A stretch of 25,044 bases of DNA from IMG/VR virus record IMGVR_UViG_2529293240_000020, positions 1 through 25,044 of that record; one strand, written 5' to 3'. The stretch is from a virus (taxonomy: Duplodnaviria; Heunggongvirae; Uroviricota; Caudoviricetes). This document shows, one piece after another, positions 758 through 14,929 of this stretch. The position numbers and the translations under genes were made by a program. Position 1 is the stretch's first letter. Each line of letters opens with the position of its first letter. Under the pieces are notes generated by a model that saw only the letters and a program-made list of their open reading frames with translations, was not told the DNA's origin and did no database searches.

Positions 758-2359
758 ATGAACAATGAACTCCCCGATGATATTGAGCTGCTTAAAGCCA
801 TGTTGCGTAAGCAACAGAGTCGGCTTCGACAGTATGCCTGTCAGATCGCGGGCTATGAGCAGGAAATTGAACGGCTGAAAGCGCAACTCGACAGGTTGCG
901 TCGTATGTTGTTCGGCCAGAGTTCAGAGAAAAAGCGTCATAAGCTTGAAAATCAGATCCGACAGGCAGAAAAACGACTGTCGGAACTGGAAAACCGGCTG
1001 AACACAGCCAGAAATCTTCTGGAAGATGCATCGACAGTCACAGATTCACCTGACACCAGTCCCCCGTCAGAAAACCCGATCGCCAGTAAGCCTGAATCCC
1101 CAGGACGAAAATCTTCACGAAAACCGCTGCCGGCAGAACTTCCCCGGGAGACACATCGCCTTCTGCCTGCTGAAACCAGTTGCCCGGCCTGTGGAGGTGT
1201 TCTGAAAGAAATGGGGGAAACAATCTCAGAGCAACTGGATATCATTAATACCGCCTTTAAAGTTATCGAAACCATACGTCCCAAACTGGCCTGTAGCCGG
1301 TGTGATGTCATCGTTCAGGCACCACTTCCCCCTAAACCGATCGAACACGGTTATGCCAGTGCAGGGTTACTTGCACGGATCCTGGTCAGCAAATATATGG
1401 AACATATCCCTTTATATCGCCAGTCAGAAATATACGCGCGACAGGGCGTGGAGCTGAGCCGTAATACCATGGTGCGCTGGGTATCAGAAATGGCAGACAA
1501 ACTCCGTCCTCTGTATATAGCGCTGAATGACTATGTTCTGGAGGCAGGAAAGGTGCACGCAGATGACACTCCGGTGAAACGTACTGGCCCCGGGGAACGG
1601 AAGACGAAAACGGGTCGTCTGTGGGTATACGTCAGGGATGATCGTAATGCGGGTTCATCCCTGCCGGCAGCCGTCTGGTTCGCGTATTCGGCAGATCGCA
1701 AAGGAGAACATCCGCAGCTCCACCTGGCAAAGTATCAGGGCGTACTGCAGGCTGATGCCTATGCAGGTTATAACGTACTGTACGAAACGGGCCGGGTGAA
1801 GGAAGCCGGGTGCCTGGCCCACGCCCGCCGAAAAATCCATGACGAGGATGTGCGCCGTCCGACAGAAATGACTCAGGAAGCGCTCAGACGGATAGCAGAG
1901 TTATACGACATAGAAGCGGAGATACGTGGCAGTCCGGCAGAGGAACGGCTTGCAGTCAGAAAAGCCAGAAGCGTCCAGTTGATGCAGTCGTTGTACGACT
2001 GGATACAGTTGCAGAGGAAAACGCTGTCGAAACATGCGGAGATGGCGAAGGCGTTCGACTATATCCTGAATCACTGGAATGCGCTGAACGAGTTCTGTCG
2101 TGACGGCTGGGTGGAAATAGACAACAACATCGGTGAAAACGCGTTACGATCGGTGGCGGTTGGAAGAAAAAATTATCTCTTTTTCGGCTCAGACAAGGGA
2201 GGAGAAAGTGCGGCGATCATCTACAGTCTGCTGGTCACCTGCAAACAGAACGAAGTGGAGCCGGAGGACTGGTTGCGCGAAGTGATCGAGAAGCTCAATG
2301 ACTGGCCGTCGAACCAAGTGCATGAACTGCTGCCCTGGAACTTCTCGTCTGTAAAATAA
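758..2359 (+). CDS. IS66-family transposase TnpC (orf3), 533 aa
   Basis: Long ORF with N-terminal coiled-coil/leucine-zipper region, zinc-finger-like CPACGG...CSRC motif and the large catalytic region characteristic of IS66 TnpC. Confidence 0.8.
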
Positions 2360-2391: not shown

Positions 2392-2683
2392 TGTTGACCT
2401 GCTCTGCGTTTAATTTGGCATTGGTTCCCATACGCCGCATCTGAGCATCAAAATCAGCCACGCCTTTTACCGTCATGCTGCCACCAAGCTCGGCAATCAT
2501 CGCCGTGTAGCGGTTGCCAAGCGCATCCAGACTGCGCCCAGCGGCGTCGGTTGTGGCTTTGACCAGGCGCATGGCTTTCTGGTTATTCCGGGCGAACTGC
2601 GACATATTCGCGCCATACTGCCGGGCTTTGGCGGTCAGGTTCCCGGCAAGGTTGATCATGATTTCCGTGCTGAGACGGCTACC
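2392..2683 (-). pseudogene. Tail tape-measure gene fragment (N-terminal ~90 codons); codons 1-3 lie at 3950..3958 across the IS600 insertion; 3-prime end truncated by IS66
   Basis: Removing IS600 and one TSD copy restores GGAG-N7-ATG GCA ACA GGT AGC CGT CTC AGC ACG GAA ATC ATG ATC AAC... in frame with ORF 2363..2659; the last ~10 codons of that ORF (SKRPEKYVA*) are read from the IS66 terminus. Position directly after the tail-chaperone gene and the alanine-rich sequence fit a tape-measure N-terminus. Confidence 0.5.
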
Positions 2684-2725
2684 TGAGGTGTACTGGCAAT
2701 AGCGGACACTACCATTTGTTCTTTT

Positions 2726-3544
2726 TTAAGCAGCCATCTGATGATATTTTTCCCTGAAGGCTGCCGGGGAGATATTCCCCAGACGAGAGTGACGACGCTG
2801 ACGATTGTAGAAAATCTCAATGTATTCCCGTATTACTGAGATGGCTTCATCCCGGTTATTAAAACGATAGTGGCTCAGGCTCTCATTTTTCAGCGTTCCC
2901 CAGAAGCTTTCCATCGGAGCGTTGTCGTAACAGTTACCTTTACGCGACATTGATGTTTTCAGACCAGACTGCTCCTGTATGACCCGGTAATCGTATGCGC
3001 AGTACTGTGAACCTCGATCAGAGTGGTGGATTAGCCCGGCAGGTGGGCGCTGGCTCCTGAGCGCCATAAACAGGGCTTTACCTGTCAGCTCTTTTGTCAT
3101 GCGCTCTCCCATGGCGTAGCCGACAATTTCGCACGTATAAACATCTTTGATGCCAGCGAGGTACAACCATCCCTCCTGTGTGGCAACATACGTCAGGTCC
3201 GCCACCCAGACCTGATTTGGTGCTGTAGGAGCGAACGTCTGGTTCAGCAGATTTGGCGCAACTGGCAGATTGTGGTTCGGGTTCGTAGTCGCTCTGAACT
3301 TGCGTTTCTGCTTACAGCGTAGCCTTAGCTCCTTACGAAGACGTGCCAGTCGGTCACGACCAACGATGATGCCATTCTCTGCCAGCTCCGTCTGGAACCG
3401 CCGGGTTCCATATGTTTCGCGAGTGCGGATATGTGCCACCTTAATCTCCAGTTTTAGCCGCTCATCACTTTGTTTTCTGTCTGAGGGTTCATGCTGTACC
3501 CAGTTGTAATAACCGCTCCTGGATACACCAAATACCTGACACAT
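2726..3544 (-). CDS. IS600-like transposase OrfB (DDE integrase domain), expressed as an OrfAB fusion by -1 frameshift
   Basis: IS3-family OrfB with DDE catalytic region (HSDRGSQY... and downstream E); the frame overlaps the orfA 3-prime end. Confidence 0.8.
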   Translation of the reverse strand: MCQVFGVSRSGYYNWVQHEPSDRKQSDERLKLEIKVAHIRTRETYGTRRFQTELAENGIIVGRDRLARLRKELRLRCKQKRKFRATTNPNHNLPVAPNLLNQTFAPTAPNQVWVADLTYVATQEGWLYLAGIKDVYTCEIVGYAMGERMTKELTGKALFMALRSQRPPAGLIHHSDRGSQYCAYDYRVIQEQSGLKTSMSRKGNCYDNAPMESFWGTLKNESLSHYRFNNRDEAISVIREYIEIFYNRQRRHSRLGNISPAAFREKYHQMAA

Positions 3545-3579
3545 CGCTTCAATGGGAAATTGTTGTCGCCATTGTTCGA

Positions 3580-3882
3580 TTAACGCGTATTTTTCAGCGA
3601 CTCCTGTGCAAAATACGCTGTTGCTTTTTTTAATATATCTCGCTCAAGGCGAGCTTCATTTAACGCCTTACGCAGTTGCAGAATTTCAGATTCCAGTTCA
3701 GCCACCGTGCGGGAACCAGGAGTACCGAGCCCTTTTCTGGCGGCGGTAACCCATTGTCCTAAAGTGCCTTCAGGAAGGGATAATCGGGAAGCGCCTTCAC
3801 TGATCGAAAGTTGATTTTCAAGAACCGTTCTGACAGCTTCGGCTTTGAACTCTTTAGAGTAACGTTGGGTTTTTCTGCTCAT
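3580..3882 (-). CDS. IS600-like OrfA (HTH plus leucine zipper), 100 aa
   Basis: ATG at 3882..3880, typical IS3-family OrfA length and sequence. Confidence 0.8.
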   Translation of the reverse strand: MSRKTQRYSKEFKAEAVRTVLENQLSISEGASRLSLPEGTLGQWVTAARKGLGTPGSRTVAELESEILQLRKALNEARLERDILKKATAYFAQESLKNTR

Positions 3883-3946
3883 TATTAGCTCCTTCTGATG
3901 CCATTCTATTTCAGGAAGGAGTGTCCGTTAAACTCAGGCTACCTCA

Positions 3947-4154
3947 ACCTGTTGCCATACTGTTTCTCCAGTTGCTTTATCAGGCGGAACAACTGCCGCA
4001 GGGGCAGTTGTTCCAGGTACTGAATGCTGAATCGCGAAGACAGGTTAACCAGCAGGTTCATCAGTGCCGCCGCCAGCGGCATCAGTTCGCCCCCGCGTTG
4101 CCACCTCCTCAAGCATGTCATCCAGCACAGCCGCTTTCGTGCTGATAAGCTCAA
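3947..4154 (-). CDS. Overlapping +1-frame ORF at the 3-prime end of the tail-chaperone gene; possible frameshift extension. Its current stop is IS-derived; natively it ends at a TAG overlapping the tape-measure start
   Basis: Frame open from a TGA near 4178 through the chaperone stop (4045) to the IS600 junction; no ATG start (the ORF track begins it at TTG); translation is protein-like and amphipathic. Confidence 0.3.
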
Positions 4155-4440
4155 GGTCTGCCGGGTGGAGCATTCGCAGCTGTTTCATGTCCAGCGGGCC
4201 GGGGATATTACCGATTGACGCAACCTGACGGCGCATCATCTCCAGTCCCATCAGCACCTCAGAACAGTAGGCCACCGCCTTTCCGTTCCCGCCCATGACG
4301 ACGCGTTCTGCGGCCAGTTGCGCATCAATCACATCACTGGCGGTCAGTTCGCGCAGTTTCACGGTTTTATGCAGGGTTTCATCTGCCGTGCCTTTGCCGG
4401 TCAGAAGCCCGTGTTTCAGTTCAAATTCCATTGCGGCCAT
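4045..4440 (-). CDS. Phage tail assembly chaperone (Mu-type), 131 aa
   Basis: Small acidic protein immediately after the tail tube gene and before the tape-measure start, the conserved myovirus order. Confidence 0.5.
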   Translation of the reverse strand: MAAMEFELKHGLLTGKGTADETLHKTVKLRELTASDVIDAQLAAERVVMGGNGKAVAYCSEVLMGLEMMRRQVASIGNIPGPLDMKQLRMLHPADLELISTKAAVLDDMLEEVATRGRTDAAGGGTDEPAG

Positions 4441-4441
4441 G

Positions 4442-4798
4442 TCACACCTTCACGCATTTTTCACCGATAAAGTTGGCACTGATGGTGCCGGAATCCTCGT
4501 CCAGCTCTGCCGGGTTATCCGTGGCGGAACCCGTCATCATGTAGTTCAGGCCGTTGTCGCCGTAGAACATCACCGTGACATCTTCCCAGCTGCTGATTTC
4601 AATCACGTCCATATCCGCTGCCGCCGCAATGGTTACCTTGATGGACGGCGAGGCCATCTTGCTGGAGATACCCCAGACCTTGCCGCCGCCCATATGCTGG
4701 GTGCGGCTGAAGCCGCCCGGATTCAGCGTGGATTTCCCCTCGGTTTTAATTTCGCGGCCATTCACGCGAATGGTCGCCATGCCAAGAATTTTTGCCAT
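4442..4798 (-). CDS. Phage tail tube protein (Mu gpM-like), 118 aa
   Basis: Size, position directly after the sheath gene, recalled similarity to Mu-like tube proteins. Confidence 0.7.
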   Translation of the reverse strand: MAKILGMATIRVNGREIKTEGKSTLNPGGFSRTQHMGGGKVWGISSKMASPSIKVTIAAAADMDVIEISSWEDVTVMFYGDNGLNYMMTGSATDNPAELDEDSGTISANFIGEKCVKV

Positions 4799-4807
4799 GT
4801 GGCCCCC

Positions 4808-6283
4808 TTAAAGCTTGAACTGAATCAGGCCTGCCAGCACACGCAACTGGTTCACCAGATTCGGGTGGCAGATAAAGTTCAGGCGGTTTTTATCGCTGCT
4901 GTCGCGTGTCACCTGAAGCGTGTCCCTGTAATCGCTGAAGTTTTCCACAAGGCCCGCCGGGAGAAGTTCGGTCTGGCAGATATCCAGCAGCTCTGCAGTG
5001 CACAGCTTCGGCGTCATCACCGGCTGCCCCGCATCCAGCGAGTCCAGCACGTCATCATCCGCCAGCTTGTGGCGCGGATAACGGTTCGAGAAACGGTTTT
5101 TAATGATGTAACGGATACGGCCCAGCGTGGCGGGTGACTGCACATCAAGATACGACACATCCGCATCACCGTACTGGTTAACCCAGTACATGGTGATTTC
5201 ACGCTCGATGCAGACGTTATCCCCGGCGTCCACCATGTGCGTGGCAATGCCGTCATGCAGCAGCAGGTTACGTTCCGGCATATCCCAGCGAACATTACGC
5301 GCAGGCGGCAGAATGCCGGTCAGGACCAGCGTCTGAAGCGGACGCGCCGGGTCAATGGCAAGGTGATACGCTGCCGTTGCGCCGTATGACGCGGCCCACA
5401 TCCACGCCGGATGCGGCGACAGGTTGGTGCCGATGCAGCTAATCAGCCAGTCATTGCGGGTTTCACCAAACGTGCCGGTTTCCCCGTGCGTGCCACGAAA
5501 CGCCGTCCACAGCTGCGCTTCCATCATTTTGAGCGGCCCCCAGCGGTTCAGCAGTTCATCACGCAGGGTGTTCAGGCTTTTCGTGTCGGTGAACGGGGCG
5601 ATGATATCGGTAAACCACTCCGGGCCGATGGCCGCAACGGCGTCTGCCATTTCCGGTGTCCCGGTGCCGCCGGTAAACGCGGTTGCGGTCACCTTCACAC
5701 CTGCCGGGAAGGCTTCACCGGTGTGGTAGTTCAGGCGAACGTCGGCACCGTTGCCGGTGACGCCGTGCCAGTTCACGGTCAGCTCCACGGTATCCGTGGC
5801 ATCATCCTTCACCGCAGCGGCCACCTGCGTGGCAGGCTTTTTCGTCACCGCATCAGCAATGGCTTTTGCAATGTTTTCCTTCGTATCCCCGGCGCTCACG
5901 CTCACCTGAACGGACACACCGTTAATCAGCAGTGCCACCGTTCCGGCTTCGGTCGCTGTACCCAGCACGGTCAGCGTGGCTTTTGCGGCAGCGCCTTCAG
6001 GAGCGGCAACCGGCATCGCCCAAGTTTCCGTGTACGTGTTGGCACGACGCAGCATTTTGAGCATTTCAGCCAGCATCGACCCTTTGCCATAAAGCTGGTC
6101 TGCCTGGCTGTCACTGGTGATACGGGTCAGTGACAGGGCGTCTGCGCTGCCGGACGATACCGCATGGCCCATGACCAGAATTTTTCGGCTTTGCGCGGAT
6201 GCACCCTCCAGTGCCTGTGAATTGTCGATATCGATCCAGACAAGCGGGACGCGGATATCATCAGGAATGGAACCCAGCGACAT
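4808..6283 (-). CDS. Phage tail sheath protein (Mu gpL-like), 491 aa
   Basis: Length and sequence character of contractile tail sheath proteins of Mu-like phages; start ATG overlaps the upstream stop (TAATG). Confidence 0.8.
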   Translation of the reverse strand: MSLGSIPDDIRVPLVWIDIDNSQALEGASAQSRKILVMGHAVSSGSADALSLTRITSDSQADQLYGKGSMLAEMLKMLRRANTYTETWAMPVAAPEGAAAKATLTVLGTATEAGTVALLINGVSVQVSVSAGDTKENIAKAIADAVTKKPATQVAAAVKDDATDTVELTVNWHGVTGNGADVRLNYHTGEAFPAGVKVTATAFTGGTGTPEMADAVAAIGPEWFTDIIAPFTDTKSLNTLRDELLNRWGPLKMMEAQLWTAFRGTHGETGTFGETRNDWLISCIGTNLSPHPAWMWAASYGATAAYHLAIDPARPLQTLVLTGILPPARNVRWDMPERNLLLHDGIATHMVDAGDNVCIEREITMYWVNQYGDADVSYLDVQSPATLGRIRYIIKNRFSNRYPRHKLADDDVLDSLDAGQPVMTPKLCTAELLDICQTELLPAGLVENFSDYRDTLQVTRDSSDKNRLNFICHPNLVNQLRVLAGLIQFKL

Positions 6284-6468
6284 TATTTTTTCCCTCTGGT
6301 TTTGTTGTTATTTTTCGGAAGTGTGGTTATTTCCACATCTCCCTCGGCTTCACGGCGCAGCCAGTAAGCGCAGACGTTGAGACGTTCCCCTTCCGGGGAT
6401 AAATGTGCGCCATCCGGTTTACGGACACGGACGTTTTCCCGCGCTGGCTTAATCAGTTTCTGTTCCAT
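6283..6468 (-). CDS. Small Mu-like phage protein preceding the sheath gene (about 61 aa from ATG 6468; alternative ATG at 6483)
   Basis: Conserved small ORF position between neck genes and sheath; stop overlaps the sheath start. Confidence 0.4.
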   Translation of the reverse strand: MEQKLIKPARENVRVRKPDGAHLSPEGERLNVCAYWLRREAEGDVEITTLPKNNNKTRGKK

Positions 6469-7060
6469 CGTCACCCCGTACATGGATCACGTCGTTAATT
6501 TCAGTGTGTTCGCCGCTGCGCAGTGTCGCCCCGAGGCGCAGGAAATCCGGGAGCGCGGCGAGATCAATCTCTTCATCCAGCCGGAATTCCTGCTCCCACG
6601 TCACCGCCCACATGGTGACACCCAGCCCGTCGAGGCTGACGGAGTAAATGTTGTCTGCCCGCACATCAGCAGCCATGCGTTCAGCCCCCATGCCCGCTGT
6701 GGCATCCGACGACAGCAGGCGTTTGATCACCTTTCCGGCCAGCACTTCACAGCGCACGTCGCGGGAATACCCCCACGAATCCGTCGCCATGATGTAAGCC
6801 ACCCAGGTGACCAGACCGGACAGCCCGCCGCGCGGGTTGATATCCCGGACACGCAGGGCCGCGACACGGATACAGCCGGTGCGACCGGACAGATAGCGTT
6901 TCACTTCATCCGGGCTGTTGAACTGGCCGATGTGACGCTCCACCACGTCAGCCCGGTCAGGGGTGTCCCCCTGAAGGGCCGTCTGCAGCCAGGCCACAAT
7001 GTGCTCTGCGGCCGCAACGGTGCTCCCCGGTGTGCGCAGTTCAGGGCGTTGTTCTGTCAT
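6449..7060 (-). CDS. Mu-like phage protein (gp37/gp38-like; putative neck or tail-completion component), 203 aa
   Basis: Position between the virion morphogenesis gene and the sheath; start overlaps the upstream stop. Confidence 0.45.
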   Translation of the reverse strand: MTEQRPELRTPGSTVAAAEHIVAWLQTALQGDTPDRADVVERHIGQFNSPDEVKRYLSGRTGCIRVAALRVRDINPRGGLSGLVTWVAYIMATDSWGYSRDVRCEVLAGKVIKRLLSSDATAGMGAERMAADVRADNIYSVSLDGLGVTMWAVTWEQEFRLDEEIDLAALPDFLRLGATLRSGEHTEINDVIHVRGDDGTETD

Positions 7061-7602
7061 GGCAGAACCTCCTTCCAGAAATGACTGATAACCTGTTGCA
7101 GCTCCTGCTGGCTGGCAGAAGACAGCCCCAGAAATTCACGTTGCGGAATGTTCATCATGCGGTGATGTGCGCCGACGGTCTGCCAGACCGGATATTTCAG
7201 CGCCCGCCCGAAACACTGCGAGATAAGCCGTTTGTGGGCGCTGACCGGCACGCTGCCGGAAAAGCCGTCATTCATGATGCGGGCATAATCCAGCGGTGAA
7301 CCGATACGCACCACGCGGTTTTCCACGATGTACTGGATACTCTCCAGCAGATGGCCTTCACCGCGCAGCAGACTCTGGTTGCCGTGGCGGGTCTTTTTGT
7401 ACCCGTCAGACCAGTCCGGCCAGCGTTCGCCACCCGGACTGGTTTTCTCATCGATGATGCGGCGGCGGGTCTGTGATTCCACCACCGCACCGATGCTTTC
7501 CAGCAGCTCTGACTGCAATGAACCCTCTGCCAGCTTTTCAACGGCGCGGCGGATATCCTCCAGACGCTGGTCACCGCTGACCTGTACAGAAATCCCCATC
7601 AC
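7057..7602 (-). CDS. Phage virion morphogenesis (tail completion) protein, Mu G-like family, 181 aa
   Basis: Sequence character and position; ATGA-type overlap with the upstream gene. Confidence 0.5.
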   Translation of the reverse strand: MMGISVQVSGDQRLEDIRRAVEKLAEGSLQSELLESIGAVVESQTRRRIIDEKTSPGGERWPDWSDGYKKTRHGNQSLLRGEGHLLESIQYIVENRVVRIGSPLDYARIMNDGFSGSVPVSAHKRLISQCFGRALKYPVWQTVGAHHRMMNIPQREFLGLSSASQQELQQVISHFWKEVLP

Positions 7603-8036
7603 AGCACCCCTTTCAGGTTGTTACGGGTGAACAGCCGGGCATTGGCACCCACCACAATAATTTTCCCGTTGTCGGTTTCTGCCGGGGTGGCATACGTCGG
7701 CAGGCCCAGGTCACGGGTGCCGTTCGCCATTTCACGCAGGGTTTTAATGGCGTCGTCGTAGCGTTTCTGGATCAGCTCCGTGATTTGATTGTCACGCTCT
7801 GATAACCAGTAAAACGCCAGCGATACCGCCACGCGTTGCAGCGGGCGCGGGATTTCCGTCACCCCCAGCGGCAGCTGGTAGCGGCGGGACAGAAACGAAT
7901 CAATTTCCGCTTCCGCATCACTGATGGCCTGACGGATTTTGTCTTCATCCAGCCCGTTGGTTTCCCGGTTAATCGCCATGTTCCAGACAAGATTGCCGTC
8001 CGCGCGTAACAGATCTTCCTGCGTGATGTATCCCAT
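7599..8036 (-). CDS. Mu gp36-like head-tail connector protein, 145 aa
   Basis: Position downstream of the major head gene in a Mu-type order; overlapping start/stop. Confidence 0.5.
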   Translation of the reverse strand: MGYITQEDLLRADGNLVWNMAINRETNGLDEDKIRQAISDAEAEIDSFLSRRYQLPLGVTEIPRPLQRVAVSLAFYWLSERDNQITELIQKRYDDAIKTLREMANGTRDLGLPTYATPAETDNGKIIVVGANARLFTRNNLKGVL

Positions 8037-8418: not shown

Positions 8419-9324
8419 TTATGCCGGGGGGGTGATGTACGGGCTGTCCACGATCTCCACATCCTTGTACCAGATGTTGGAATCGCCGCCGTTAACCAGC
8501 ATGGCGTCAATAATGAGCTTCGCGTCCGCACGGTTTTTCGGCCCCACCACAAGGGTGGTCGGGCGGATGCCCAGCGGCTCACCGTTGGTGCCCTTCATGC
8601 CCCGCAGCAACTCATTGGCTTTTTTGTAGTTCTCCACCGTCAGTGCTGCACGGGAACCGACGGCGGTCTGCCAGAAGCCGAAGCCCGCATTACAGCGACC
8701 GTCCACGCCGTACAGGAACTCGTGGTTCTTGAAGGTGTGCTCGCTGTTCAGATCGTCCAGGGCTTCAAACTTAAAGGCGCGTCGCGTCTGCCAGATGATG
8801 GGTTTCAGCACCTGCGACTCATCAATCAGGAACCACGGTTCGCCCTTGTCTGATGCCGGGGTGCCGACAACGTTGCTGTACGTACCGTCACCCAGCGGGT
8901 GGTCTTCATCAAAGAAGTTCTGGCCGTCAAAGCACAGGGTGTTAAAACCGGCACACAACAGGGCGTAACACAGCTTGTCCGGGAACACAGCAGTCATACG
9001 GCCATAGCGTTCGGCGGTAATGCTGTACTGACCAATCTGGTCATCTTCAATGTGTTCACGCTTAACGCGAATGGAACTTTCCCAGAGTTTGTTGGTGATG
9101 GTGTAACCATAACCGTCCAGCGTTGCCAGCTGACGCTCACCGACCCATTCTTTGATGTCCGGTAAATCTTTCATCCAGCCGTAAGTGTTGGAGGCGGACG
9201 AACTCGGCACCTCAGAAGCAATACGATTCCACTGCGGTTCGACACCACTCAGTCCACGGGTAAAGGCGGCGCTCAGGCAGGTGGTCAGTGCATGAAGGAT
9301 TTCAGAACTGATAGTCTGTGACAT
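8419..9324 (-). CDS. Major head (capsid) subunit, Mu gpT-like, 301 aa
   Basis: Length and sequence typical of Mu-like major head subunits; position after the protease/scaffold gene. Confidence 0.8.
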   Translation of the reverse strand: MSQTISSEILHALTTCLSAAFTRGLSGVEPQWNRIASEVPSSSASNTYGWMKDLPDIKEWVGERQLATLDGYGYTITNKLWESSIRVKREHIEDDQIGQYSITAERYGRMTAVFPDKLCYALLCAGFNTLCFDGQNFFDEDHPLGDGTYSNVVGTPASDKGEPWFLIDESQVLKPIIWQTRRAFKFEALDDLNSEHTFKNHEFLYGVDGRCNAGFGFWQTAVGSRAALTVENYKKANELLRGMKGTNGEPLGIRPTTLVVGPKNRADAKLIIDAMLVNGGDSNIWYKDVEIVDSPYITPPA

Positions 9325-9331
9325 GTGTTAC

Positions 9332-10288
9332 TTACTCCTGTTTCGGTTTAGCGGCGAGGAACTCTTCCCCGGTAATACCCATGCTGCGACACATCGCCAG
9401 TTCGGCATCGGTCAGTGTCTGCGCGGGTTTATCCTTGCCCTGGCTGGGCTTGTCGTTGTTAACCAGCGGCTGTGCACCTTTGGTGTACTCCGCAAACTGT
9501 TTGCGGCCTTCTTCCGTGCGGCAGGTGGCAAGGAACATGTCACGGTTTGCCGGGGCGACTTTTCCGGCCCCGATGGCCGCATCCACAAGCGCCTCGGCTT
9601 CCTTCTCTTCCAGTTGCTGAAGGCGTTTTTCTGCGGTTTCGGCACGGTTCAGTGCCAAATTGTGGGTTTCCACCGGCACAAACTTCGTCAGGTCAGGTGT
9701 CTGTGCGCGGTTCAGCGCCACCTGTTCGTTCTCCTGAAGTTGTTTAATGGCGGCCACGGTATCGTCCACCGTGGCGGATTCAGCCAGCCCAAGCAGGCCG
9801 GTGATTTGCACAGGTACTGTCATCGGGTTTTTCTCCGTATTCAGTGCAGGAAAATCCAGGTTAGGTTTGTTGGTCAGCCCGACGCTGGACAGGCGCGTCA
9901 CCGCACCGTCTGCGTCATGGAAAAACGCCGGGCTGTAATAGCGGTAGCGGCGCTCGCTCAGCATCCACCGGGCGGACTCACTCCAGACAACACGCCCTTC
10001 AATGGTGCCGCTGTCCGTCACCCGCAGTGCTTCCACCCAGCCATACGCCGGAGCCTCTTCACCCCGCGGGCCTTTAATTTCGGTGGCATGTTCAATGTCC
10101 ACCGGAATGTTGATGTCGGACGAACGGGCAACCACCTCATGTGGATTGCGGTTCATCCACGTCCGGCCATCGCGCCCGGTGAACTCACCCGCAGGAACGA
10201 GTTCAAGCCATTCCGGCAGTTGAGCGGGTGTCAGCTCAGGGATGGGTTCTGGCAGGGAAAAACACAGCGCCAGCAGTTCCGGTTGCAT
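9332..10288 (-). CDS. Head maturation protease / scaffold protein, Mu gpI-like, 318 aa
   Basis: Protease-like N-terminal half and coiled-coil, charged scaffold-like C-terminal half (EKRLQQLEEKEAEALV...); GGAG SD 9 nt upstream of ATG 10288. Confidence 0.7.
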   Translation of the reverse strand: MQPELLALCFSLPEPIPELTPAQLPEWLELVPAGEFTGRDGRTWMNRNPHEVVARSSDINIPVDIEHATEIKGPRGEEAPAYGWVEALRVTDSGTIEGRVVWSESARWMLSERRYRYYSPAFFHDADGAVTRLSSVGLTNKPNLDFPALNTEKNPMTVPVQITGLLGLAESATVDDTVAAIKQLQENEQVALNRAQTPDLTKFVPVETHNLALNRAETAEKRLQQLEEKEAEALVDAAIGAGKVAPANRDMFLATCRTEEGRKQFAEYTKGAQPLVNNDKPSQGKDKPAQTLTDAELAMCRSMGITGEEFLAAKPKQE

Positions 10289-10331
10289 GTCAGTCTCCGT
10301 CGTCTGGGGTTACCGACGGTCAGTATGCGGA

Positions 10332-10367
10332 AGGCAGAAAAAAAGCCGGATTTACCGGCTTCACTGA
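10332..10367 (-). promoter_or_regulatory. Copy B of a ~35-bp repeated dyad element (AAGCCGG-ATTTA-CCGGCTT hairpin plus T-run on the minus strand), 50 nt upstream of the protease gene start
   Basis: Near-identical to 17871..17906 (two substitutions and one A-run length difference); minus-strand RNA would fold as a 7-bp stem, 5-nt loop, followed by UUUUUU. Confidence 0.45.
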
Positions 10368-10502
10368 AAACGGGGAAATACCCCCTTCAAAACCCCTTCA
10401 AAAACGCCACGGACGCTTCAAAAAAGCCAGGGTGTACATTCATGCCATCAGAATAAAAAACGCGTTTCTGATGCGTTTCAGGGGCATTTACGGCGGGGAG
10501 GG

Positions 10503-11255
10503 TTATTCACTGTTAAAACGGGCCTGTCTGGCCGCCAGCTCCTGCTCACGGTTTATGCCGGGATTGTAGTTCCAGCCCGGATCAATCCCTTCCGGCACCT
10601 CTTCCTCTTCGCCCGTACGTTTGTTCACCCAGCGGACAGTTCTGATTTCCGGCGCTTCGGTGTGAATGGTGCCCTGTGCCGCCAGTTGCGCATACTCACC
10701 ACGGCTGACCTGACGGATGGTGCATTTGCAGCCCCAGCCGTTAGGGGCAAAATGCGTCTGCCAGAACGGATGCTCTACCGGCAGACACAGACGCGCCCAT
10801 TTCACATGCTCCACCCGGTGCTCACGGGATGGCCCCAGCTCGTACATCAGATACGGCATGGCCTGCTTTGTCCGCTGAATGCGTTCCCACTGGCCCGCCG
10901 CGCGGGCGGTGCGCATGTTGGTATCAAAAATCGTGCGGAGGCGGCGGTCGCTGCCCAGTTGCACGGTGCGGGTTTCACCCGTCAGCGGATCATCCATCTC
11001 CTGTACGCCCCACCATCCGCGTTTTATCAGCAACGGTTGCAGCATCTCCCGGAACTCGCTGAACGTCTGCCCGCTTTGCAGGGCGTCTTCCACAAGGGCT
11101 TTCACATCCGACAACAAATCCAGTTGCAGCATTCTGGCCACGGGGAAGCTGTACCGGTGCTCTTCCCGCCACACATCCCGGTAATCAAAACCGGGACGCA
11201 GCTTCTTCGCCTTCAGCCACGCCAGCGCCTCTTTCGGGATGAGGGTTTCACGCAT
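10503..11255 (-). CDS. Head morphogenesis protein, Mu gpF-like, ~250 aa from ATG at 11255
   Basis: Position after the portal gene; ATG at 11255 overlaps the portal stop by 8 nt (the track ORF extends to 11312). Confidence 0.65.
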   Translation of the reverse strand: MRETLIPKEALAWLKAKKLRPGFDYRDVWREEHRYSFPVARMLQLDLLSDVKALVEDALQSGQTFSEFREMLQPLLIKRGWWGVQEMDDPLTGETRTVQLGSDRRLRTIFDTNMRTARAAGQWERIQRTKQAMPYLMYELGPSREHRVEHVKWARLCLPVEHPFWQTHFAPNGWGCKCTIRQVSRGEYAQLAAQGTIHTEAPEIRTVRWVNKRTGEEEEVPEGIDPGWNYNPGINREQELAARQARFNSE

Positions 11256-12819
11256 GAGCAGTGTCTCCCAGCGCACGCGCCTTAAAGCACACCTCCGCCA
11301 GTTGCAGGGCAAAGTCGTCCGCGTTCAGCGTTTCCTGAAGCTCAGGCAGGCGTTTCAGAAAGTCATCAAAACTGTCGCACTCCTGCGCCAGTGTCAGCAC
11401 CGGGTTCGTGAACGCCTCGCCGGTTTTCTGCCAGTCACGCAGGGCATCATCCACCATCTGTGCCAGTTCGTCGGGGTGTTCCCTGTTCAGGGCGACGCGC
11501 TCGCGGTTCATCGCCATATCACCCGGCATCCCGGCAGACACCGGATGCAGAACATCAGCCCCTTCGTCTGGCTCAGCCAGGCCGAACCGGTCCCGCAGCG
11601 CCGACTCCTGAACCCGCATCCCCCGGTCAATCAGCGCCACCAGAGCATCTGTCAGCGCCTTCAGATCTTCGGCTTCACTGATACGCAGAACAACACGGGG
11701 GTAGTGCGCCTGTGGCCCGTAGTTGGCCTCGATGTAGGGCCGCACCAGATATTCATTCAGCGTGTTAGCCAGCTGCCGCGCGTCCCAGCGCACAATGTCC
11801 ATGCGCACCTGATTGTGCACGTCCGCCTGTGAACGCGAACTGCCGTTATCCGTGGTCATGGTCTGCCCCAGCACAGCCTTACTGATTTGCGCATCACACC
11901 ATTCCGCCATTTCACGGAACAGTGCGCCGCCGTTATTCCGGCTGGCGGTTTCCTGCATCTCCAGTTGCATGGACTGCGGAATGGCACACCCGGCATCCGA
12001 GGCAATGGAGGCAATCGCATCAATCAGTACGCGGATTTGCTCCTCCGTGGCGTTGGGACCGTATTTCCCCACCGTGACCGGAATGCCGAATTTTTCCGCG
12101 AATGCCCACCAGTCACGCACGGTAAAGGATTTCAGCATGTACATTACCGCCACCAGACGGGCCAGACCGTTACGCAGCGGCAGACCGGATTTCAGGCGCG
12201 GCTGGTGAACAATGAATTTTCCCGGTGTCAGTGGTACACCATCCACCGGTTCATCATCCGTCAGCAGGCGGAACTGGCGCAGTGTGGGCTTTTCGGCTTT
12301 CAGAAAACGGGGATCAACCCACTCATAATCACGGGGCACCCAGTGATTGTTACGGGTGTTCCACAGAATTTCACAGACCGCCACGCCTTTTCCCAGCCCG
12401 TCGAGCAGATCAAACATCAGCTCGGGGATTTGCGGGGCTTCCATCAGCGCACGGATGGCGTCCGCCAGCTGCACGTCAGCATCGTCATCACTGGCCGCCA
12501 CCACCACCGGTTCGATACCCGCCACCGTCAGCTTGCGGGTGCGCAGTACCGAGGCGTAATGCAAATCGCGTTCTTCCATCTCTTCAGCAAGGATAAAAAA
12601 ATCACGCGTGATACCGTCGGCGGCATTGCGCAGAATACCGGCCAGTCTGCCGGGATTCAGCCCGGAGGCGATGCTGATGCCCGGAGAGGCCGGACGCACA
12701 CCCGCCTGACGCGGACGGGCCTGTACTTCATCGAGCCTCTCTTTTTTCAGCGTGTCTTCCTCACCGGTTGCCGGGTTCAGCAGACGGCGAACGGCCCCGG
12801 CCAGTTGTTTCAGGTTCAC
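11248..12819 (-). CDS. Portal protein, Mu gp29-like, 523 aa
   Basis: Size and position immediately after the large terminase gene with ATGA-type overlap. Confidence 0.8.
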   Translation of the reverse strand: MNLKQLAGAVRRLLNPATGEEDTLKKERLDEVQARPRQAGVRPASPGISIASGLNPGRLAGILRNAADGITRDFFILAEEMEERDLHYASVLRTRKLTVAGIEPVVVAASDDDADVQLADAIRALMEAPQIPELMFDLLDGLGKGVAVCEILWNTRNNHWVPRDYEWVDPRFLKAEKPTLRQFRLLTDDEPVDGVPLTPGKFIVHQPRLKSGLPLRNGLARLVAVMYMLKSFTVRDWWAFAEKFGIPVTVGKYGPNATEEQIRVLIDAIASIASDAGCAIPQSMQLEMQETASRNNGGALFREMAEWCDAQISKAVLGQTMTTDNGSSRSQADVHNQVRMDIVRWDARQLANTLNEYLVRPYIEANYGPQAHYPRVVLRISEAEDLKALTDALVALIDRGMRVQESALRDRFGLAEPDEGADVLHPVSAGMPGDMAMNRERVALNREHPDELAQMVDDALRDWQKTGEAFTNPVLTLAQECDSFDDFLKRLPELQETLNADDFALQLAEVCFKARALGDTAHA

Positions 12820-14351
12820 AGTAAACCTCCCTCATTTTTCAGGCCACGCGTCAGCTTCATCTGGCGGCGTGCGTTGCGCTCTTCCGGTTTCGCCGGGCGG
12901 TTCAGGCGGTGCAGCTCGTAACGGTGGCAGTCATCTTTACTGGCAAGGAAGCCCAGGAAAATAGCCACAGCGGCGTCGCCGTGACGCTTGCGGCCATCGC
13001 TGCCTTTAGTACGGGCATCGTCAATACCGGGAACGCCACGCAGTAACTGAATGGCCCCGAGGTCATTGATCACGTCTTCATGCTTCGGAAGGATCAGCTC
13101 ATCATCTTCAAACGCCGCACGGAAACGGGGCATGTTTTCGCGGTAGAACGCCACGGACAGCATCACCTGTTCCACCTCGTCGCCGTATCGTTCTGCCGCC
13201 TGTTCTGCCAGATACTGACCATTACCCCGCGCATCCATTTTGATACCGTCACGACGGGGCAGACGATCGCAAAGCCAGAACAGCACCTGCTCCTGCTGTT
13301 TAAACGGCACATTGGCAAGCTCAACCAGAAACGGCACCTCGCGGGTGGTGTCGTCGTTCACCGTCACCGGGGCCAGCACGGTCAGGTCACCCGAACGCGC
13401 AAAGTCTTCCCCCAGACAGTGGCGCAGATTCTTCGGGAGTTTTTCCAGCTCGGGGCGCACCACCGTTTCCAGCCATTCCCGGATATCTGCCCGGCGCTGA
13501 CTTTCCGTCAGTGCGTTAAATTCCGGTGTGCCGGTAAAGCGCAAGACTTTCCCGGTGCCACGGGCCGCACGTTCACGCAGTGAGCGGGGGATATACGTGC
13601 CGCCGCCGTTTTTCGGGACGCAGTAATATTCCTCCAGCGCATCTTCGCGGGTGGCGGTATTTCGCAGCAGGCCTTCTTTCCATTCGGCCTCGGCTTCCGG
13701 TGACCACACCATGCCGCGCACCTGACAGATACGCCGGTACAGCCCGTCATTGCAGGCATCATCCAGCGTGATGGTGTGAATACGGTAATCTTTTTTGCCT
13801 GCGCGGCTTTCCTGAATCAGCTGGTTAAACGGGTTGTCCACGCCGTCATGGGTGGAGATAAGGCGAACCTTACCGCCCCACGTGGTCAGTGGTGTGACCG
13901 CTTTGAGTACCTCATCCAGCTTTTCATGAAACGCCGCTTCGTCGATGGTGACATTCCCCTGCATCCCGCGAATGTTGCCCGGATTACTGGACAGCGCCTT
14001 GACCTTAAATCCGCTGGCGAAGTACACGACGAACGTCAGAATGTCCTTGTCTTCGTCGGTGATCACTTCCTCGCGGATTTCTTCCGCGGCTGCATTAAAC
14101 GCTTTTGCCCACATCGCCACGGCGTCGATAAATTCGCGGGCCATCTCCTTATTCGAACCGATGTAAAAGTGATCGCATCCGCCGTTTTCCTTCTTCAGTG
14201 ATGCGGTCAGTGCCGCATCTGCCGCTTCCGCCCAGGTTAAACCGGTACGGCGGGATTTTTCGGCGATTTTCAGTTTTGAATCATCCGCCACCCAGCGTTT
14301 CTGATACGGCAGCAGAACATCGGATTCACTGAATGCGTTCATCTGTGTCAT
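12816..14351 (-). CDS. Terminase large subunit, Mu gp28-like, 511 aa
   Basis: Size, ATPase-like N-terminal region and acidic nuclease-like C-terminal region, position upstream of the portal gene. Confidence 0.8.
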   Translation of the reverse strand: MTQMNAFSESDVLLPYQKRWVADDSKLKIAEKSRRTGLTWAEAADAALTASLKKENGGCDHFYIGSNKEMAREFIDAVAMWAKAFNAAAEEIREEVITDEDKDILTFVVYFASGFKVKALSSNPGNIRGMQGNVTIDEAAFHEKLDEVLKAVTPLTTWGGKVRLISTHDGVDNPFNQLIQESRAGKKDYRIHTITLDDACNDGLYRRICQVRGMVWSPEAEAEWKEGLLRNTATREDALEEYYCVPKNGGGTYIPRSLRERAARGTGKVLRFTGTPEFNALTESQRRADIREWLETVVRPELEKLPKNLRHCLGEDFARSGDLTVLAPVTVNDDTTREVPFLVELANVPFKQQEQVLFWLCDRLPRRDGIKMDARGNGQYLAEQAAERYGDEVEQVMLSVAFYRENMPRFRAAFEDDELILPKHEDVINDLGAIQLLRGVPGIDDARTKGSDGRKRHGDAAVAIFLGFLASKDDCHRYELHRLNRPAKPEERNARRQMKLTRGLKNEGGLL

Positions 14352-14929
14352 ACACTAATCCCCAGAATTTCACGTTTGATGGTGTCAGCCGCACCGCCTG
14401 ACAGACCGCCCGCTCTGACCAGCTCTTCGGTTTTCTCTGCCATTTCCTGCGCAAACGCATCGCGGATTGCTTTTTCGCGTTTATGGCTGGTCATGGCTGC
14501 CGCTTCCAGACGCTGGGCAACCAACGCCAGTTGCCCCAGCGCCTTCGGTGCAACAGGTTTGTCGTCTTCTGTCATCGACATGGACGTTTCAAAGGCCAGC
14601 GTTTTTACAAACTCCATCAGCAGCCTGCCGACATCTAACGTCGGCGCGGAACCCAGCTTTGCCGCCCAGACTTCGGCCATTTCGCGGGAGGCGCGGATTT
14701 TTGCCCCGACTTTTTCCATGCGGCTGGCATAGCGGTTTAAGCCCGTCCGGCTTAACTGCATCCCCCCCGGCAGGTTATGTTCGTCAATCAGGGCATTGAT
14801 GGCTTCGCGGATTTCTTCCTGCGTGTGCCGCTTTTCCCGCAGCATCTGGTGTAACTGCTCACGGATGCTGTCCGGGAGTAAATCCACTTTGGAAAGACGG
14901 CCACGGGTGGGGCGTTGTTCATTTTCCAT
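14348..14929 (-). CDS. Putative small terminase / DNA-binding protein, Mu gp27-like, 193 aa
   Basis: Immediately upstream of and overlapping the large terminase gene; charged helical protein. Confidence 0.5.
   Translation of the reverse strand: MENEQRPTRGRLSKVDLLPDSIREQLHQMLREKRHTQEEIREAINALIDEHNLPGGMQLSRTGLNRYASRMEKVGAKIRASREMAEVWAAKLGSAPTLDVGRLLMEFVKTLAFETSMSMTEDDKPVAPKALGQLALVAQRLEAAAMTSHKREKAIRDAFAQEMAEKTEELVRAGGLSGGAADTIKREILGISV

What the first reader, a model, noticed from the sequence alone, without database searches (positions are those of the whole stretch)
3947..4178. Overlapping ORF in the +1 frame at the end of the tail-chaperone gene
A second frame is open from a TGA near 4178 across the chaperone stop (4045) to a native TAG that overlaps the tape-measure ATG, and it encodes a protein-like amphipathic sequence with no ATG start. 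The position is right for a chaperone frameshift extension as in lambda G/GT, but the frame relationship is +1 rather than the usual -1.
Basis: partly seen in the sequence, partly recalled or inferred. Interest (0 to 1): 0.4.

Follow-up and report, generated by a model that had tools for sequence, protein, structure and literature searches.

The report
Mu-type tail-chaperone programmed frameshift extension
The overlapping reading frame is real and is the conserved second half of a phage tail-assembly chaperone, reached when a small share of ribosomes slip back two bases on the sequence GG GGG CGA, as already shown for phage Mu; it is a textbook feature, sitting here in a prophage whose tail genes are broken by insertion elements.

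Summary
On the minus strand, a second frame (+1, equivalently -2, relative to the 131-aa chaperone gene 4440..4045) is open from 4184 to the TAG at 3941..3939. The chaperone belongs to Pfam Gp41_Mu (E 4e-37). Its zero frame contains CGG GGG CGA (4095..4087). That octamer, GG GGG CGA, is the one on which phage Mu makes its verified -2 frameshift product FS-gp41, at about 2% efficiency according to the literature.

Of 144 distinct homologous loci from Escherichia, Klebsiella, Vibrio, Shewanella, Pasteurella and metagenomes, 140 carry the octamer in the same frame. In the loci inspected the same second frame stays open to the tape-measure start. That frame is under purifying selection (pN/pS 0.35, against 2.96 for the continued zero frame). 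The extension profile matches Mu's extension (hhalign 84%, E 7.5e-6).

Local points: the TAG in the window lies inside an inserted IS600, and the native stop is two codons earlier. IS600 splits the tape-measure gene after codon 4, and an IS66-family element truncates it. Public annotation misses the fusion. A GGAG motif and two conserved hairpins in this clade are untested extras. Interest is low.

The parts
4045..4440 (-). Tail assembly chaperone gene (Mu gp41 family), zero-frame product 131 aa
   Evidence: ORF list. Pfam Gp41_Mu PF23746 E 4.1e-37 over model positions 1-107; Phage_TAC_7 E 5e-7. phrog_508 'tail assembly chaperone' E 2e-39. It lies between the tail tube gene (4798..4442, PF10618) and the tape-measure start.
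4087..4095 (-). Slip site CGG GGG CGA in the zero frame (octamer GG GGG CGA at 4094..4087). P-site codon GGG is 4092..4090; A-site codon CGA is 4089..4087.
   Evidence: Sequence. It is the only GGGGGCGA in the window on either strand. It is identical to Mu's site in L001 and to the published Mu site (PMC3458567). It is in frame in 140 of 144 distinct homologues. The Pfam Gp41_Mu model ends exactly at this Arg codon (R118).
3939..4088 (-). Extension ('T-like') ORF read after the shift: ELMPLAAALMNLLVNLSSRFSIQYLEQLPLRQLFRLIKQLEKQYGNR, plus LR* supplied by IS600. The native part is 4088..3947.
   Evidence: Translation. phrog_38797 E 1e-41. The peptide is conserved in homologues. pN/pS is 0.35 in this frame. 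hhalign against the Mu-clade extension gives 84%, E 7.5e-6.
4104..4108 (-). Shine-Dalgarno-like GGAGG, 9-10 nt 5' of the octamer (a possible stimulator; inferred)
   Evidence: GGAG occupies the same alignment columns in 59 of 67 distinct sequences of this clade, whatever amino acid the preceding codon encodes. It is absent at that position in Mu.
4065..4081 (-). Small G+C-rich hairpin UGCCG-CUGGCGG-CGGCA, starting 5 nt after the CGA codon (a possible stimulator; inferred)
   Evidence: RNAalifold predicts pairs 45-61 to 49-57, which are nearly invariant. Folding energy is about -10.5 kcal/mol in four diverged members.
3986..4014 (-). Conserved 12-bp hairpin GGAACAACUGCC-CCUGC-GGCAGUUGUUCC inside the extension ORF, 31 nt after the zero-frame stop and 27 nt before the tape-measure ATG. 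Its function is unknown.
   Evidence: Single-sequence fold. 98.3% of cells are paired, and 5 of 12 pairs show compensatory changes; 0 of 500 shuffles reach the observed score. RNAalifold finds the hairpin independently.
3947..3958 (-). First four codons of the tape-measure gene (ATG GCA ACA GGT), cut off by IS600. The gene resumes at 2680 and ends at 2394.
   Evidence: Alignment with uninterrupted alleles. The resumed fragment matches phrog_973, 'tail length tape measure protein'.
2684..3946 (-). IS600 (IS3 family), 1263 bp, flanked by the target duplication GGT. It supplies the TAG that ends the ORF in this window.
   Evidence: 99.8% identical to elements annotated 'IS3-like element IS600 family transposase'. 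Boundaries and inverted repeats; junction.

Best explanation
This is the programmed ribosomal frameshift of a Mu-type tail assembly chaperone.

Most ribosomes translate the gp41-like gene to its TAA and release a 131-aa chaperone. A small fraction pause with tRNA-Gly on GGG in the P site and the rare, poorly decoded Arg codon CGA in the A site. They slip back two bases on CGG GGG CGA. They then continue in the other frame for 47 native codons (49 here, because of IS600) and stop at the start of the tape-measure gene. The result is a fusion of about 165 aa, consisting of residues 1-118 plus ELMPLAAAL...KQYGNR.

By analogy with lambda gpG/gpGT, the shared N-terminal domain coats the tape-measure protein, and the rare C-terminal extension recruits the tube subunit or initiator. 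The fixed slip frequency sets the ratio of the two proteins.

Shown here: family membership, the identical slip site, conservation of the frame and of the peptide, and the genomic position. Taken from published work on Mu: that the shift is -2, ribosomal, and about 2% efficient. Inferred: what the two domains do, and any role for the GGAG motif and the nearby hairpin.

In this window the signal looks intact but serves no purpose, because the tape-measure gene is destroyed.
For: - Pfam Gp41_Mu E 4e-37, with the gene lying between the tube and tape-measure genes.
- Mu's record annotates Mu_56 as a 'verified -2 translational frameshift', citing PMID 15469818.
- Mu's site reads CGG GGG CGA, as does the window's.
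- The literature describes tandem -2 slippage on GG GGG CGA with A-site tRNA-Arg(ICG) (PMC3458567), an efficiency of about 2.2% (PMC3498833), and -2 frameshifting used in decoding phage Mu (PMC5009743).
- 140 of 144 distinct homologues carry NGG GGG CGA in frame, 3-66 nt before the zero-frame stop. The preceding Arg codon is always CGG (135) or AGG (5), and never one of the common Arg codons.
- In the loci listed, the +1 frame is open from the motif to a stop at the tape-measure start. The extension is 44-54 aa, and the -1 frame is closed.
- pN/pS is 0.35 in the extension frame, 2.96 in the continued zero frame and 0.78 in the -1 frame.
- The extension profile matches Mu's: hhalign 84%, E 7.5e-6.
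- The Pfam domain ends exactly at the CGA codon.
- Mu's fusion exists in databases at the length expected for -2, 188 aa (UIW09302.1 and UniProt P0DJY4); the 187-aa +1 version is absent.
Against: - There is no protein, ribosome-profiling or RNA evidence for this locus or its clade.
- The direction of the shift (-2 rather than +1) is carried over from Mu, which is only about 47% identical in the chaperone.
- The primary paper (Xu, Hendrix and Duda 2004) could not be read here. I relied on papers that cite it and on the GenBank note.
- The match between the two extension profiles is moderate (84%).
- The fusion protein of this clade is not in a collection of 15 billion proteins, so nobody has annotated or observed it.
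- The prophage is defective, so this copy is no longer under selection.
Confidence: 0.88

Rival explanations
1. The same fusion is made at the same site, but by +1 slippage. The P-site tRNA-Gly moves from GGG to GGC while the A site waits for the rare CGA codon. The product would be one residue shorter.
For: A rare A-site codon is the classical trigger for +1 shifts, and the frame reached is the same. Nothing measured here separates the two directions for this clade. Three homologues have only four G (AAG GGG CGA) yet keep the extension frame, which fits -2 re-pairing less well.
Against: For Mu the shift is recorded as a verified -2. +1 slippage would need only GGG C. Yet the two G before GGG are kept in 140 of 144 sequences through exclusive use of the uncommon Arg codons CGG and AGG. 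That is expected only if the tRNA re-pairs two bases back. The GGAG motif lies 10-12 nt upstream, not about 3 nt as in prfB (the spacing rule is from my own knowledge of the prfB and dnaX signals).
Confidence: 0.06
2. The second frame is an independent small gene of 45-47 aa, starting at ATG 4082..4080, as RefSeq annotates it in some genomes ('hypothetical protein').
For: PGAP calls a 45-aa CDS there in E. coli RM9088. That peptide is deposited as 'hypothetical protein' for Shigella, E. coli and Salmonella. phrog_38797 holds such entries.
Against: The ATG is not conserved. Homologues read DLVPL, DLKAL or EWLRC at that place, with no Met. By contrast, the octamer upstream of it and the frame from the octamer onward are conserved. 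Peptide conservation begins directly after the slip site, upstream of the ATG.
Confidence: 0.03
3. RNA polymerase slips on the G5 run, adding two G or dropping one, so that a minority of transcripts carry the two frames fused.
For: The frame arithmetic works. One metagenomic relative (L144) has a one-base deletion in the G run that fuses the frames, which shows that the run can change length at the DNA level.
Against: From my own knowledge, known bacterial transcriptional slippage needs runs of about 8-9 A or T, so five G is short. This model does not explain why CGA is invariant immediately after the run. The literature treats the Mu case as ribosomal.
Confidence: 0.02
4. The open frame is a chance ORF, or the remnant of a frameshift mutation in a once-continuous gene.
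For: An 81-codon open stretch and one copy of an 8-mer are not significant in one sequence. The prophage is decaying.
Against: The same split-frame arrangement, slip motif and peptide are kept across 140 distinct sequences from several bacterial orders, with purifying selection on the second frame.
Confidence: 0.01

Closest known systems
Phage Mu gp41 / FS-gp41 (Mu_41 / Mu_56; UniProt P0DJY4): tail assembly chaperone with a -2 programmed frameshift
   Same: Same Pfam family (PF23746). Same position between the tube and tape-measure genes. Identical slip sequence CGG GGG CGA in the same frame. The extension is about 50 aa, ends at the tape-measure start, and its profile matches Mu's.
   Different: The chaperone is only about 47% identical. 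The zero-frame tail after the site is 13 codons here and 6 in Mu. This clade has a GGAG motif 10 nt upstream and a local G+C-rich hairpin 5 nt downstream, which Mu lacks at those positions. The host prophage has a tyrosine integrase instead of Mu's transposition system. The tape-measure gene is broken here.
Phage lambda gpG / gpGT
   Same: The logic is the same: a chaperone gene just upstream of the tape-measure gene, and a rare frameshift near its 3' end that adds a second domain in a fixed ratio (PMC5009743).
   Different: Lambda slips -1 on a heptamer of the X XXY YYZ type. Here the -1 frame is closed (25 codons) and the shift goes to the other frame. No sequence similarity to lambda G or T was detected.
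Phage P2 gpE / gpE+E' (Pfam Phage_TAC_7, PF10109)
   Same: A weak but above-threshold Pfam match (E 5e-7, 30 bits against a cut-off of 25). It is also from a contractile-tail phage and has the same gene order.
   Different: From my own knowledge, P2 uses a -1 shift. The slip motif and the frame relation differ.
E. coli dnaX -1 frameshift signal (upstream Shine-Dalgarno-like element, slippery site, downstream stem-loop)
   Same: The window's clade shows the same three-part layout. GGAG lies about 10 nt upstream, then the slippery run, then a hairpin of about -10.5 kcal/mol 5 nt downstream. The dnaX layout is from my own knowledge.
   Different: The slippery sequence differs, and the shift is by two bases. 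The roles of the flanking elements here are untested inference.
Arterivirus nsp2TF -2 frameshift
   Same: It is another natural -2 frameshift (PMC5009743).
   Different: It is a eukaryotic RNA virus with a different slip site. From my own knowledge, its stimulator is a protein. It is unrelated in sequence and in function.

Membership tests
Mu gp41 / FS-gp41 tail assembly chaperone with -2 frameshift | The chaperone sequence belongs to Pfam Gp41_Mu (PF23746) | tested here: met
   E 4.1e-37, 127 bits against a cut-off of 27, model positions 1-107 of 107.
Mu gp41 / FS-gp41 tail assembly chaperone with -2 frameshift | The gene lies between the tail tube gene and the tape-measure gene of a contractile tail module | tested here: met
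   Sheath 6283..4808, tube 4798..4442, chaperone 4440..4045, tape-measure ATG 3958.
Mu gp41 / FS-gp41 tail assembly chaperone with -2 frameshift | [quoted passage not shown] | tested here: met
   CGG GGG CGA at 4095..4087, 39 nt before the stop. It is the same as Mu's and the published site.
Mu gp41 / FS-gp41 tail assembly chaperone with -2 frameshift | A second ORF in the +1/-2 frame is open from the slip site to the tape-measure start, about 45-55 aa, and is conserved as protein | tested here: met
   47 native codons after the slip. 140 of 144 homologues carry the in-frame octamer, followed by a 44-54-aa extension; the frame runs to the tape-measure start in the loci listed. pN/pS is 0.35.
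Mu gp41 / FS-gp41 tail assembly chaperone with -2 frameshift | The extension domain is homologous to Mu's extension | tested here: met
   hhalign profile against profile: probability 84%, E 7.5e-6 over 41 columns, with a shared LPLR.L motif. The support is moderate. No Pfam or NCBIfam model exists for this part.
Mu gp41 / FS-gp41 tail assembly chaperone with -2 frameshift | A fusion protein is actually made, by a -2 ribosomal shift at a low percentage | not testable with these tools
   This is known only for Mu. It needs protein analysis.
Lambda gpG/gpGT-type -1 frameshift | The extension lies in the -1 frame and is reached from a slippery heptamer X XXY YYZ | tested here: not met
   The -1 frame is open for only 25 codons across the stop, and a -1 slip on the G run meets TGA after two codons (read from the sequence). 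G GGG CGA is not an X XXY YYZ heptamer.
Lambda gpG/gpGT-type -1 frameshift | Two products share an N-terminal domain and are encoded just upstream of the tape-measure gene | tested here: met
   Gene order and frame layout. This is resemblance in function, not membership.
prfB (RF2)-type +1 frameshift | A stop codon in the A site, and a Shine-Dalgarno-like element about 3 nt upstream of the shift codon | tested here: not met
   The A-site codon is the sense codon CGA. GGAG lies 10 nt before the octamer and 12 nt before the P-site codon. The prfB features are from my own knowledge.

The most novel reading that the evidence does not exclude
The enterobacterial clade that includes this window may have added its own regulatory RNA elements to the Mu-type -2 site. 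There are three candidates:

- a Shine-Dalgarno-like GGAG at a fixed 10-nt distance upstream;
- a G+C-rich hairpin 5 nt downstream; together with the GGAG motif this gives a dnaX-like three-part signal, which could raise or tune the -2 slip frequency;
- a 12-bp hairpin supported by covariation inside the extension ORF, just before the tape-measure start. It could control tape-measure translation or mRNA fate in the roughly 98% of messages whose ribosomes stop at the chaperone TAA.

I found no description of any of these for Mu-type chaperones in the papers I could read.
Probability: 0.3. Interest if true: 0.35.

Novelty: new member of a known kind. Interest (0 to 1): 0.12.

Why it matters
The main value is in annotation. 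The mechanism has been published since 2004, so nothing new about frameshifting follows from this locus. What the analysis does show is a systematic gap in annotation.

- In this prophage clade, found in 46 of 5,426 complete E. coli genomes as well as in Shigella and Salmonella records, the fusion protein is absent from a collection of 15 billion proteins.
- Its second half is either left unannotated or called a 45-aa 'hypothetical protein'.
- The rule 'Gp41_Mu domain ending in NGG GGG CGA, plus an open +1 frame to the tape-measure start' held for 140 of 144 distinct loci. It could be used to annotate these products automatically.

The clade-specific GGAG motif and hairpins are cheap to test as modulators of a rare -2 shift.

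Tried and rejected
- Chance control using the alternative frames across the stops of 26 other genes in the window. It was uninformative, because in a packed phage operon the long open alternative frames are simply the next genes.
- Octamer count in the window. One copy against 1.3 expected, so it is not significant alone. Only its place, frame and conservation count.
- A -1 frameshift, the usual G/GT type. Rejected because the -1 frame is closed.
- Independent start at ATG 4082. Rejected because the ATG is not conserved.
- Terminator scan of 3900..4500. None was found, so the 12-bp hairpin is not an intrinsic terminator.
- NCBIfam search with the fusion and with the extension. No family matched. 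Pfam has no model for the extension.
- Search for the exact IS600/tape-measure junction in genome contigs, to name the source strain. No match. A 47-aa peptide with the IS-derived LR tail exists on a single 3.5-kb Logan contig.
- The primary paper, Xu et al. 2004, is not held.
- A literal text search for GGGGGCGA returned only unrelated papers.
- Test for an equivalent conserved hairpin in the Mu clade. Only a 4-bp consensus with no covariation, so the 12-bp hairpin is specific to this clade.
- Structure prediction was not attempted. A joined fusion sequence is not a plain translation of the window, and a 47-aa peptive alone would give a poor model.

Full report
**What is in the sequence**

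All genes of this region lie on the minus strand. A tail sheath gene (6283..4808; Phage_sheath Pfam domains, phrog_165) is followed by a tail tube gene (4798..4442; PF10618) and a 131-aa ORF (4440..4045).

It runs from 4184, directly after TGA 4187..4185, across the chaperone stop (TAA 4047..4045) to TAG 3941..3939. Chaperone codons start at positions congruent to 0 mod 3 and the second frame at positions congruent to 2 mod 3. On the minus strand this is the +1 frame, or equivalently -2. The -1 frame is open for only 25 codons across the stop.

**The end of the ORF and the insertion elements**

The TAG that closes the ORF in this window belongs to an inserted IS600.

- The element spans 3946..2684 (1263 bp). 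It has terminal repeats TGAGGT..., a 3-bp target duplication GGT (3949..3947 and 2683..2681), and 99.8% identity to annotated 'IS3-like element IS600 family transposase' copies.
- Uninterrupted alleles in E. coli genomes read ...CAG TAT GGC AAC AGG TAG (or TAA) CCG TCT.... The native ORF therefore stops two codons earlier, at the same place.
- The tape-measure gene starts at ATG 3958..3956 and is split by IS600 after its fourth codon.
- It resumes at 2680. Homology to intact alleles ends at 2394, where an IS66-family element begins; its transposase ORF is 758..2359 on the plus strand.

The prophage can therefore no longer build a tail.

**What the chaperone is**

The 131-aa protein matches Pfam Gp41_Mu (PF23746) over the whole model (E 4e-37). 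It also matches Phage_TAC_7 weakly and phrog_508 'tail assembly chaperone'. A tblastn search of phage genomes finds Mu, D108, SfMu and Mu-like phages of Klebsiella, Vibrio, Shewanella, Pasteurella, Yersinia and Alteromonadaceae.

**What is known for Mu**

- Papers I could read state that -2 frameshifting is used in decoding Mu (PMC5009743).
- They describe it as tandem -2 slippage on GG GGG CGA, with the A-site tRNA-Arg (anticodon ICG) pairing better in the -2 than in the -1 frame (PMC3458567).
- They put its efficiency at about 2.2% (PMC3498833).
- The primary paper (Xu, Hendrix and Duda 2004) is not in the library.
- Mu's sequence reads GAA CGG GGG CGA GTG, and the window reads ACG CGG GGG CGA ACT (4095..4087). 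The octamer occurs only once in the 25-kb window on either strand.
- The Pfam Gp41_Mu model ends exactly at the Arg encoded by this CGA, both in the window's protein (R118) and in Mu's (R138).

I collected loci around relatives of the chaperone from phage records, E. coli genomes and IMG/VR contigs. They comprise 144 distinct sequences, with chaperones from 100% down to about 35-45% identical to the window's.

- 140 of the 144 carry NGG GGG CGA in the zero frame, 3 to 66 nt before the zero-frame stop.
- In the loci inspected, the +1 frame is open from the motif to a stop at or overlapping the tape-measure start. The extension is 44-54 aa.
- The Arg codon before GGG is always CGG (135) or AGG (5). 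It is never one of the common Arg codons. The Arg codon after GGG is always the rare CGA.
- This fixed codon choice points to a constraint on the nucleotides. The two G ahead of GGG matter for re-pairing two bases back, but not for a +1 slip. I therefore take it as indirect support for -2 in this clade too.

The four exceptions are as follows.

- Three sequences have AAG GGG CGA and keep the extension frame.
- One contig has a one-base deletion in the G run that fuses the frames.

Selection on the three frames was compared for the 46 codons after the slip site, using 42 diverged members of the window's clade.

| Frame | pN/pS |
|---|---|
| Extension frame (+1/-2) | 0.35 |
| Continued zero frame | 2.96 |
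| -1 frame | 0.78 |

The extension peptide is recognisably conserved (…LMPLAAAL.NLL.NLS.RF…YLEQLPLRQLF…QL.KQ). A profile of it matches a profile of the Mu-clade extensions (hhalign probability 84%, E 7.5e-6), with a shared LPLR.L motif.

**Mechanism**

I conclude that the window holds a Mu-type programmed frameshift. With tRNA-Gly on GGG (4092..4090) and CGA (4089..4087) in the A site, a minority of ribosomes slip back two bases. They then read GAA CUG AUG CCG... to the stop.

- The predicted product is residues 1-118 followed by ELMPLAAALMNLLVNLSSRFSIQYLEQLPLRQLFRLIKQLEKQYGNR. That is 165 aa natively, and 167 aa here because IS600 adds LR.
- The residue at the junction is uncertain even for Mu. 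GenBank's UIW09302.1 has ...ERGR-EWL... and UniProt P0DJY4 has ...ERGG-EWL... Both are 188 aa, the length expected for -2. The 187-aa +1 version is not in the collection.
- The function is inferred from lambda gpG/gpGT (PMC5009743). The common domain binds the tape-measure protein, the rare extension recruits the tube protein, and the slip frequency fixes the ratio.

**Rivals**

- A +1 slip at the same site cannot be excluded for this clade without protein data. It is disfavoured by the Mu result and by the conserved G run.
- An independent 45-aa gene starting at ATG 4082 is what PGAP annotates in some genomes. It is also deposited as 'hypothetical protein'. However, that ATG is absent in many homologues, whereas the slip site and the peptide upstream of it are conserved.
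- Transcriptional slippage on five G is unlikely, and it would not explain the invariant CGA.
- A chance ORF or a mutational frameshift is excluded by the conservation.

**Extras seen in this clade (not part of the known Mu description; roles inferred)**

- GGAG lies at a fixed distance (10 nt) upstream of the octamer in 59 of 67 distinct sequences. It is kept whatever amino acid the preceding codon encodes. Mu lacks it.
- A G+C-rich hairpin (UGCCG-CUGGCGG-CGGCA, about -10.5 kcal/mol) starts 5 nt after CGA.
- A 12-bp hairpin lies at 4014..3986, 31 nt after the chaperone stop and 27 nt before the tape-measure ATG.
  - It is paired in 98.3% of cells, and 5 of its 12 pairs show compensatory changes. 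Some of these alter the amino acids on both sides (GGAAC/GUUCC to GCAGC/GCUGC).
  - No shuffle of 500 reaches the observed score, and slid controls score far lower.
  - The mismatches that occur are mostly G-U, which fits RNA of the sense strand.
  - It is not followed by a U run.
  - A comparable hairpin is not supported in the Mu clade.

**Comparison and verdict**

The locus passes every membership feature of the Mu gp41/FS-gp41 system that can be tested by sequence. It fails the defining features of the lambda-type -1 and prfB-type +1 signals. It is a further, unannotated member of a known and published kind.

The fusion of this clade is absent from a collection of 15 billion proteins, so the practical gain is an annotation rule. 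Interest is low (0.12). The most novel reading still open is that the flanking GGAG motif and hairpins are clade-specific regulators of the -2 shift or of tape-measure expression (probability about 0.3).

Noticed in passing
window 2684..3946 (-), flanks 3947..3949 and 2681..2683: An IS600 (1263 bp) with a GGT target duplication is inserted after codon 4 of the tape-measure gene. It adds two codons (LR) and its own TAG to the frameshift extension.
   Followed up: yes
window 2394 and below; transposase ORF 758..2359 (+): Homology to intact tape-measure genes stops at 2394, where an IS66-family element begins (GTAAGCGCCCC...). Only about the first 110 codons of a gene of roughly 600 codons remain, so the prophage is tail-defective.
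   Followed up: partly
window 3986..4014 (-): A 12-bp RNA hairpin lies inside the extension ORF, between the chaperone stop and the tape-measure start. It has compensatory changes in 5 of 12 pairs across 67 homologues. It is not a terminator, and its function is unknown.
   Followed up: partly
window 4104..4108 and 4065..4081 (-): A Shine-Dalgarno-like GGAG(G) lies 10 nt upstream of the slip octamer, and a G+C-rich hairpin lies 5 nt downstream. Both are conserved in this clade and absent at those positions in Mu. The layout resembles the dnaX frameshift signal.
   Followed up: partly
L004 2219..2356; proteins P0001-P0015: RefSeq and other sources annotate the distal part of the extension as a separate 45-aa 'hypothetical protein' (MPLAAALMNLL...) in E. 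coli, Shigella and Salmonella. The fusion itself is in no database searched.
   Followed up: yes
L187, L188, L192 (about 1520..1532); L144 (about 1530..1545): Three relatives have AAG GGG CGA (four G) instead of NGG GGG CGA and keep the extension frame. One contig has a one-base deletion in the G run that fuses the two frames, followed by a second frame break.
   Followed up: partly
Mu fusion proteins P0031 and P0032: GenBank (UIW09302.1...ERGR-EWL...) and UniProt (P0DJY4...ERGG-EWL...) disagree on the residue at the Mu frameshift junction.
   Followed up: no
L001 about 1867..1875 with 1961..1969 (phage Mu): In Mu the minimum-energy fold pairs GUGCCGGAA, 10 nt after the CGA codon, with UUCCGGCAC about 100 nt downstream. 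Read by eye, relatives show wobble-compatible changes there. No covariation test was run.
   Followed up: no
window 23197..24438 (-) and 8419..14929 (-): The prophage combines Mu-like head and tail genes (gpT, protease I, F, portal, gp27) with a tyrosine integrase, rather than a Mu-type transposase within this window.
   Followed up: no
window 7800..3947 compared with 2685..2394, against L003: Identity to the closest E. coli allele drops from 98.8% upstream of the IS600 to 86.4% in the tape-measure fragment. This suggests a mosaic junction at or near the tape-measure start.
   Followed up: no
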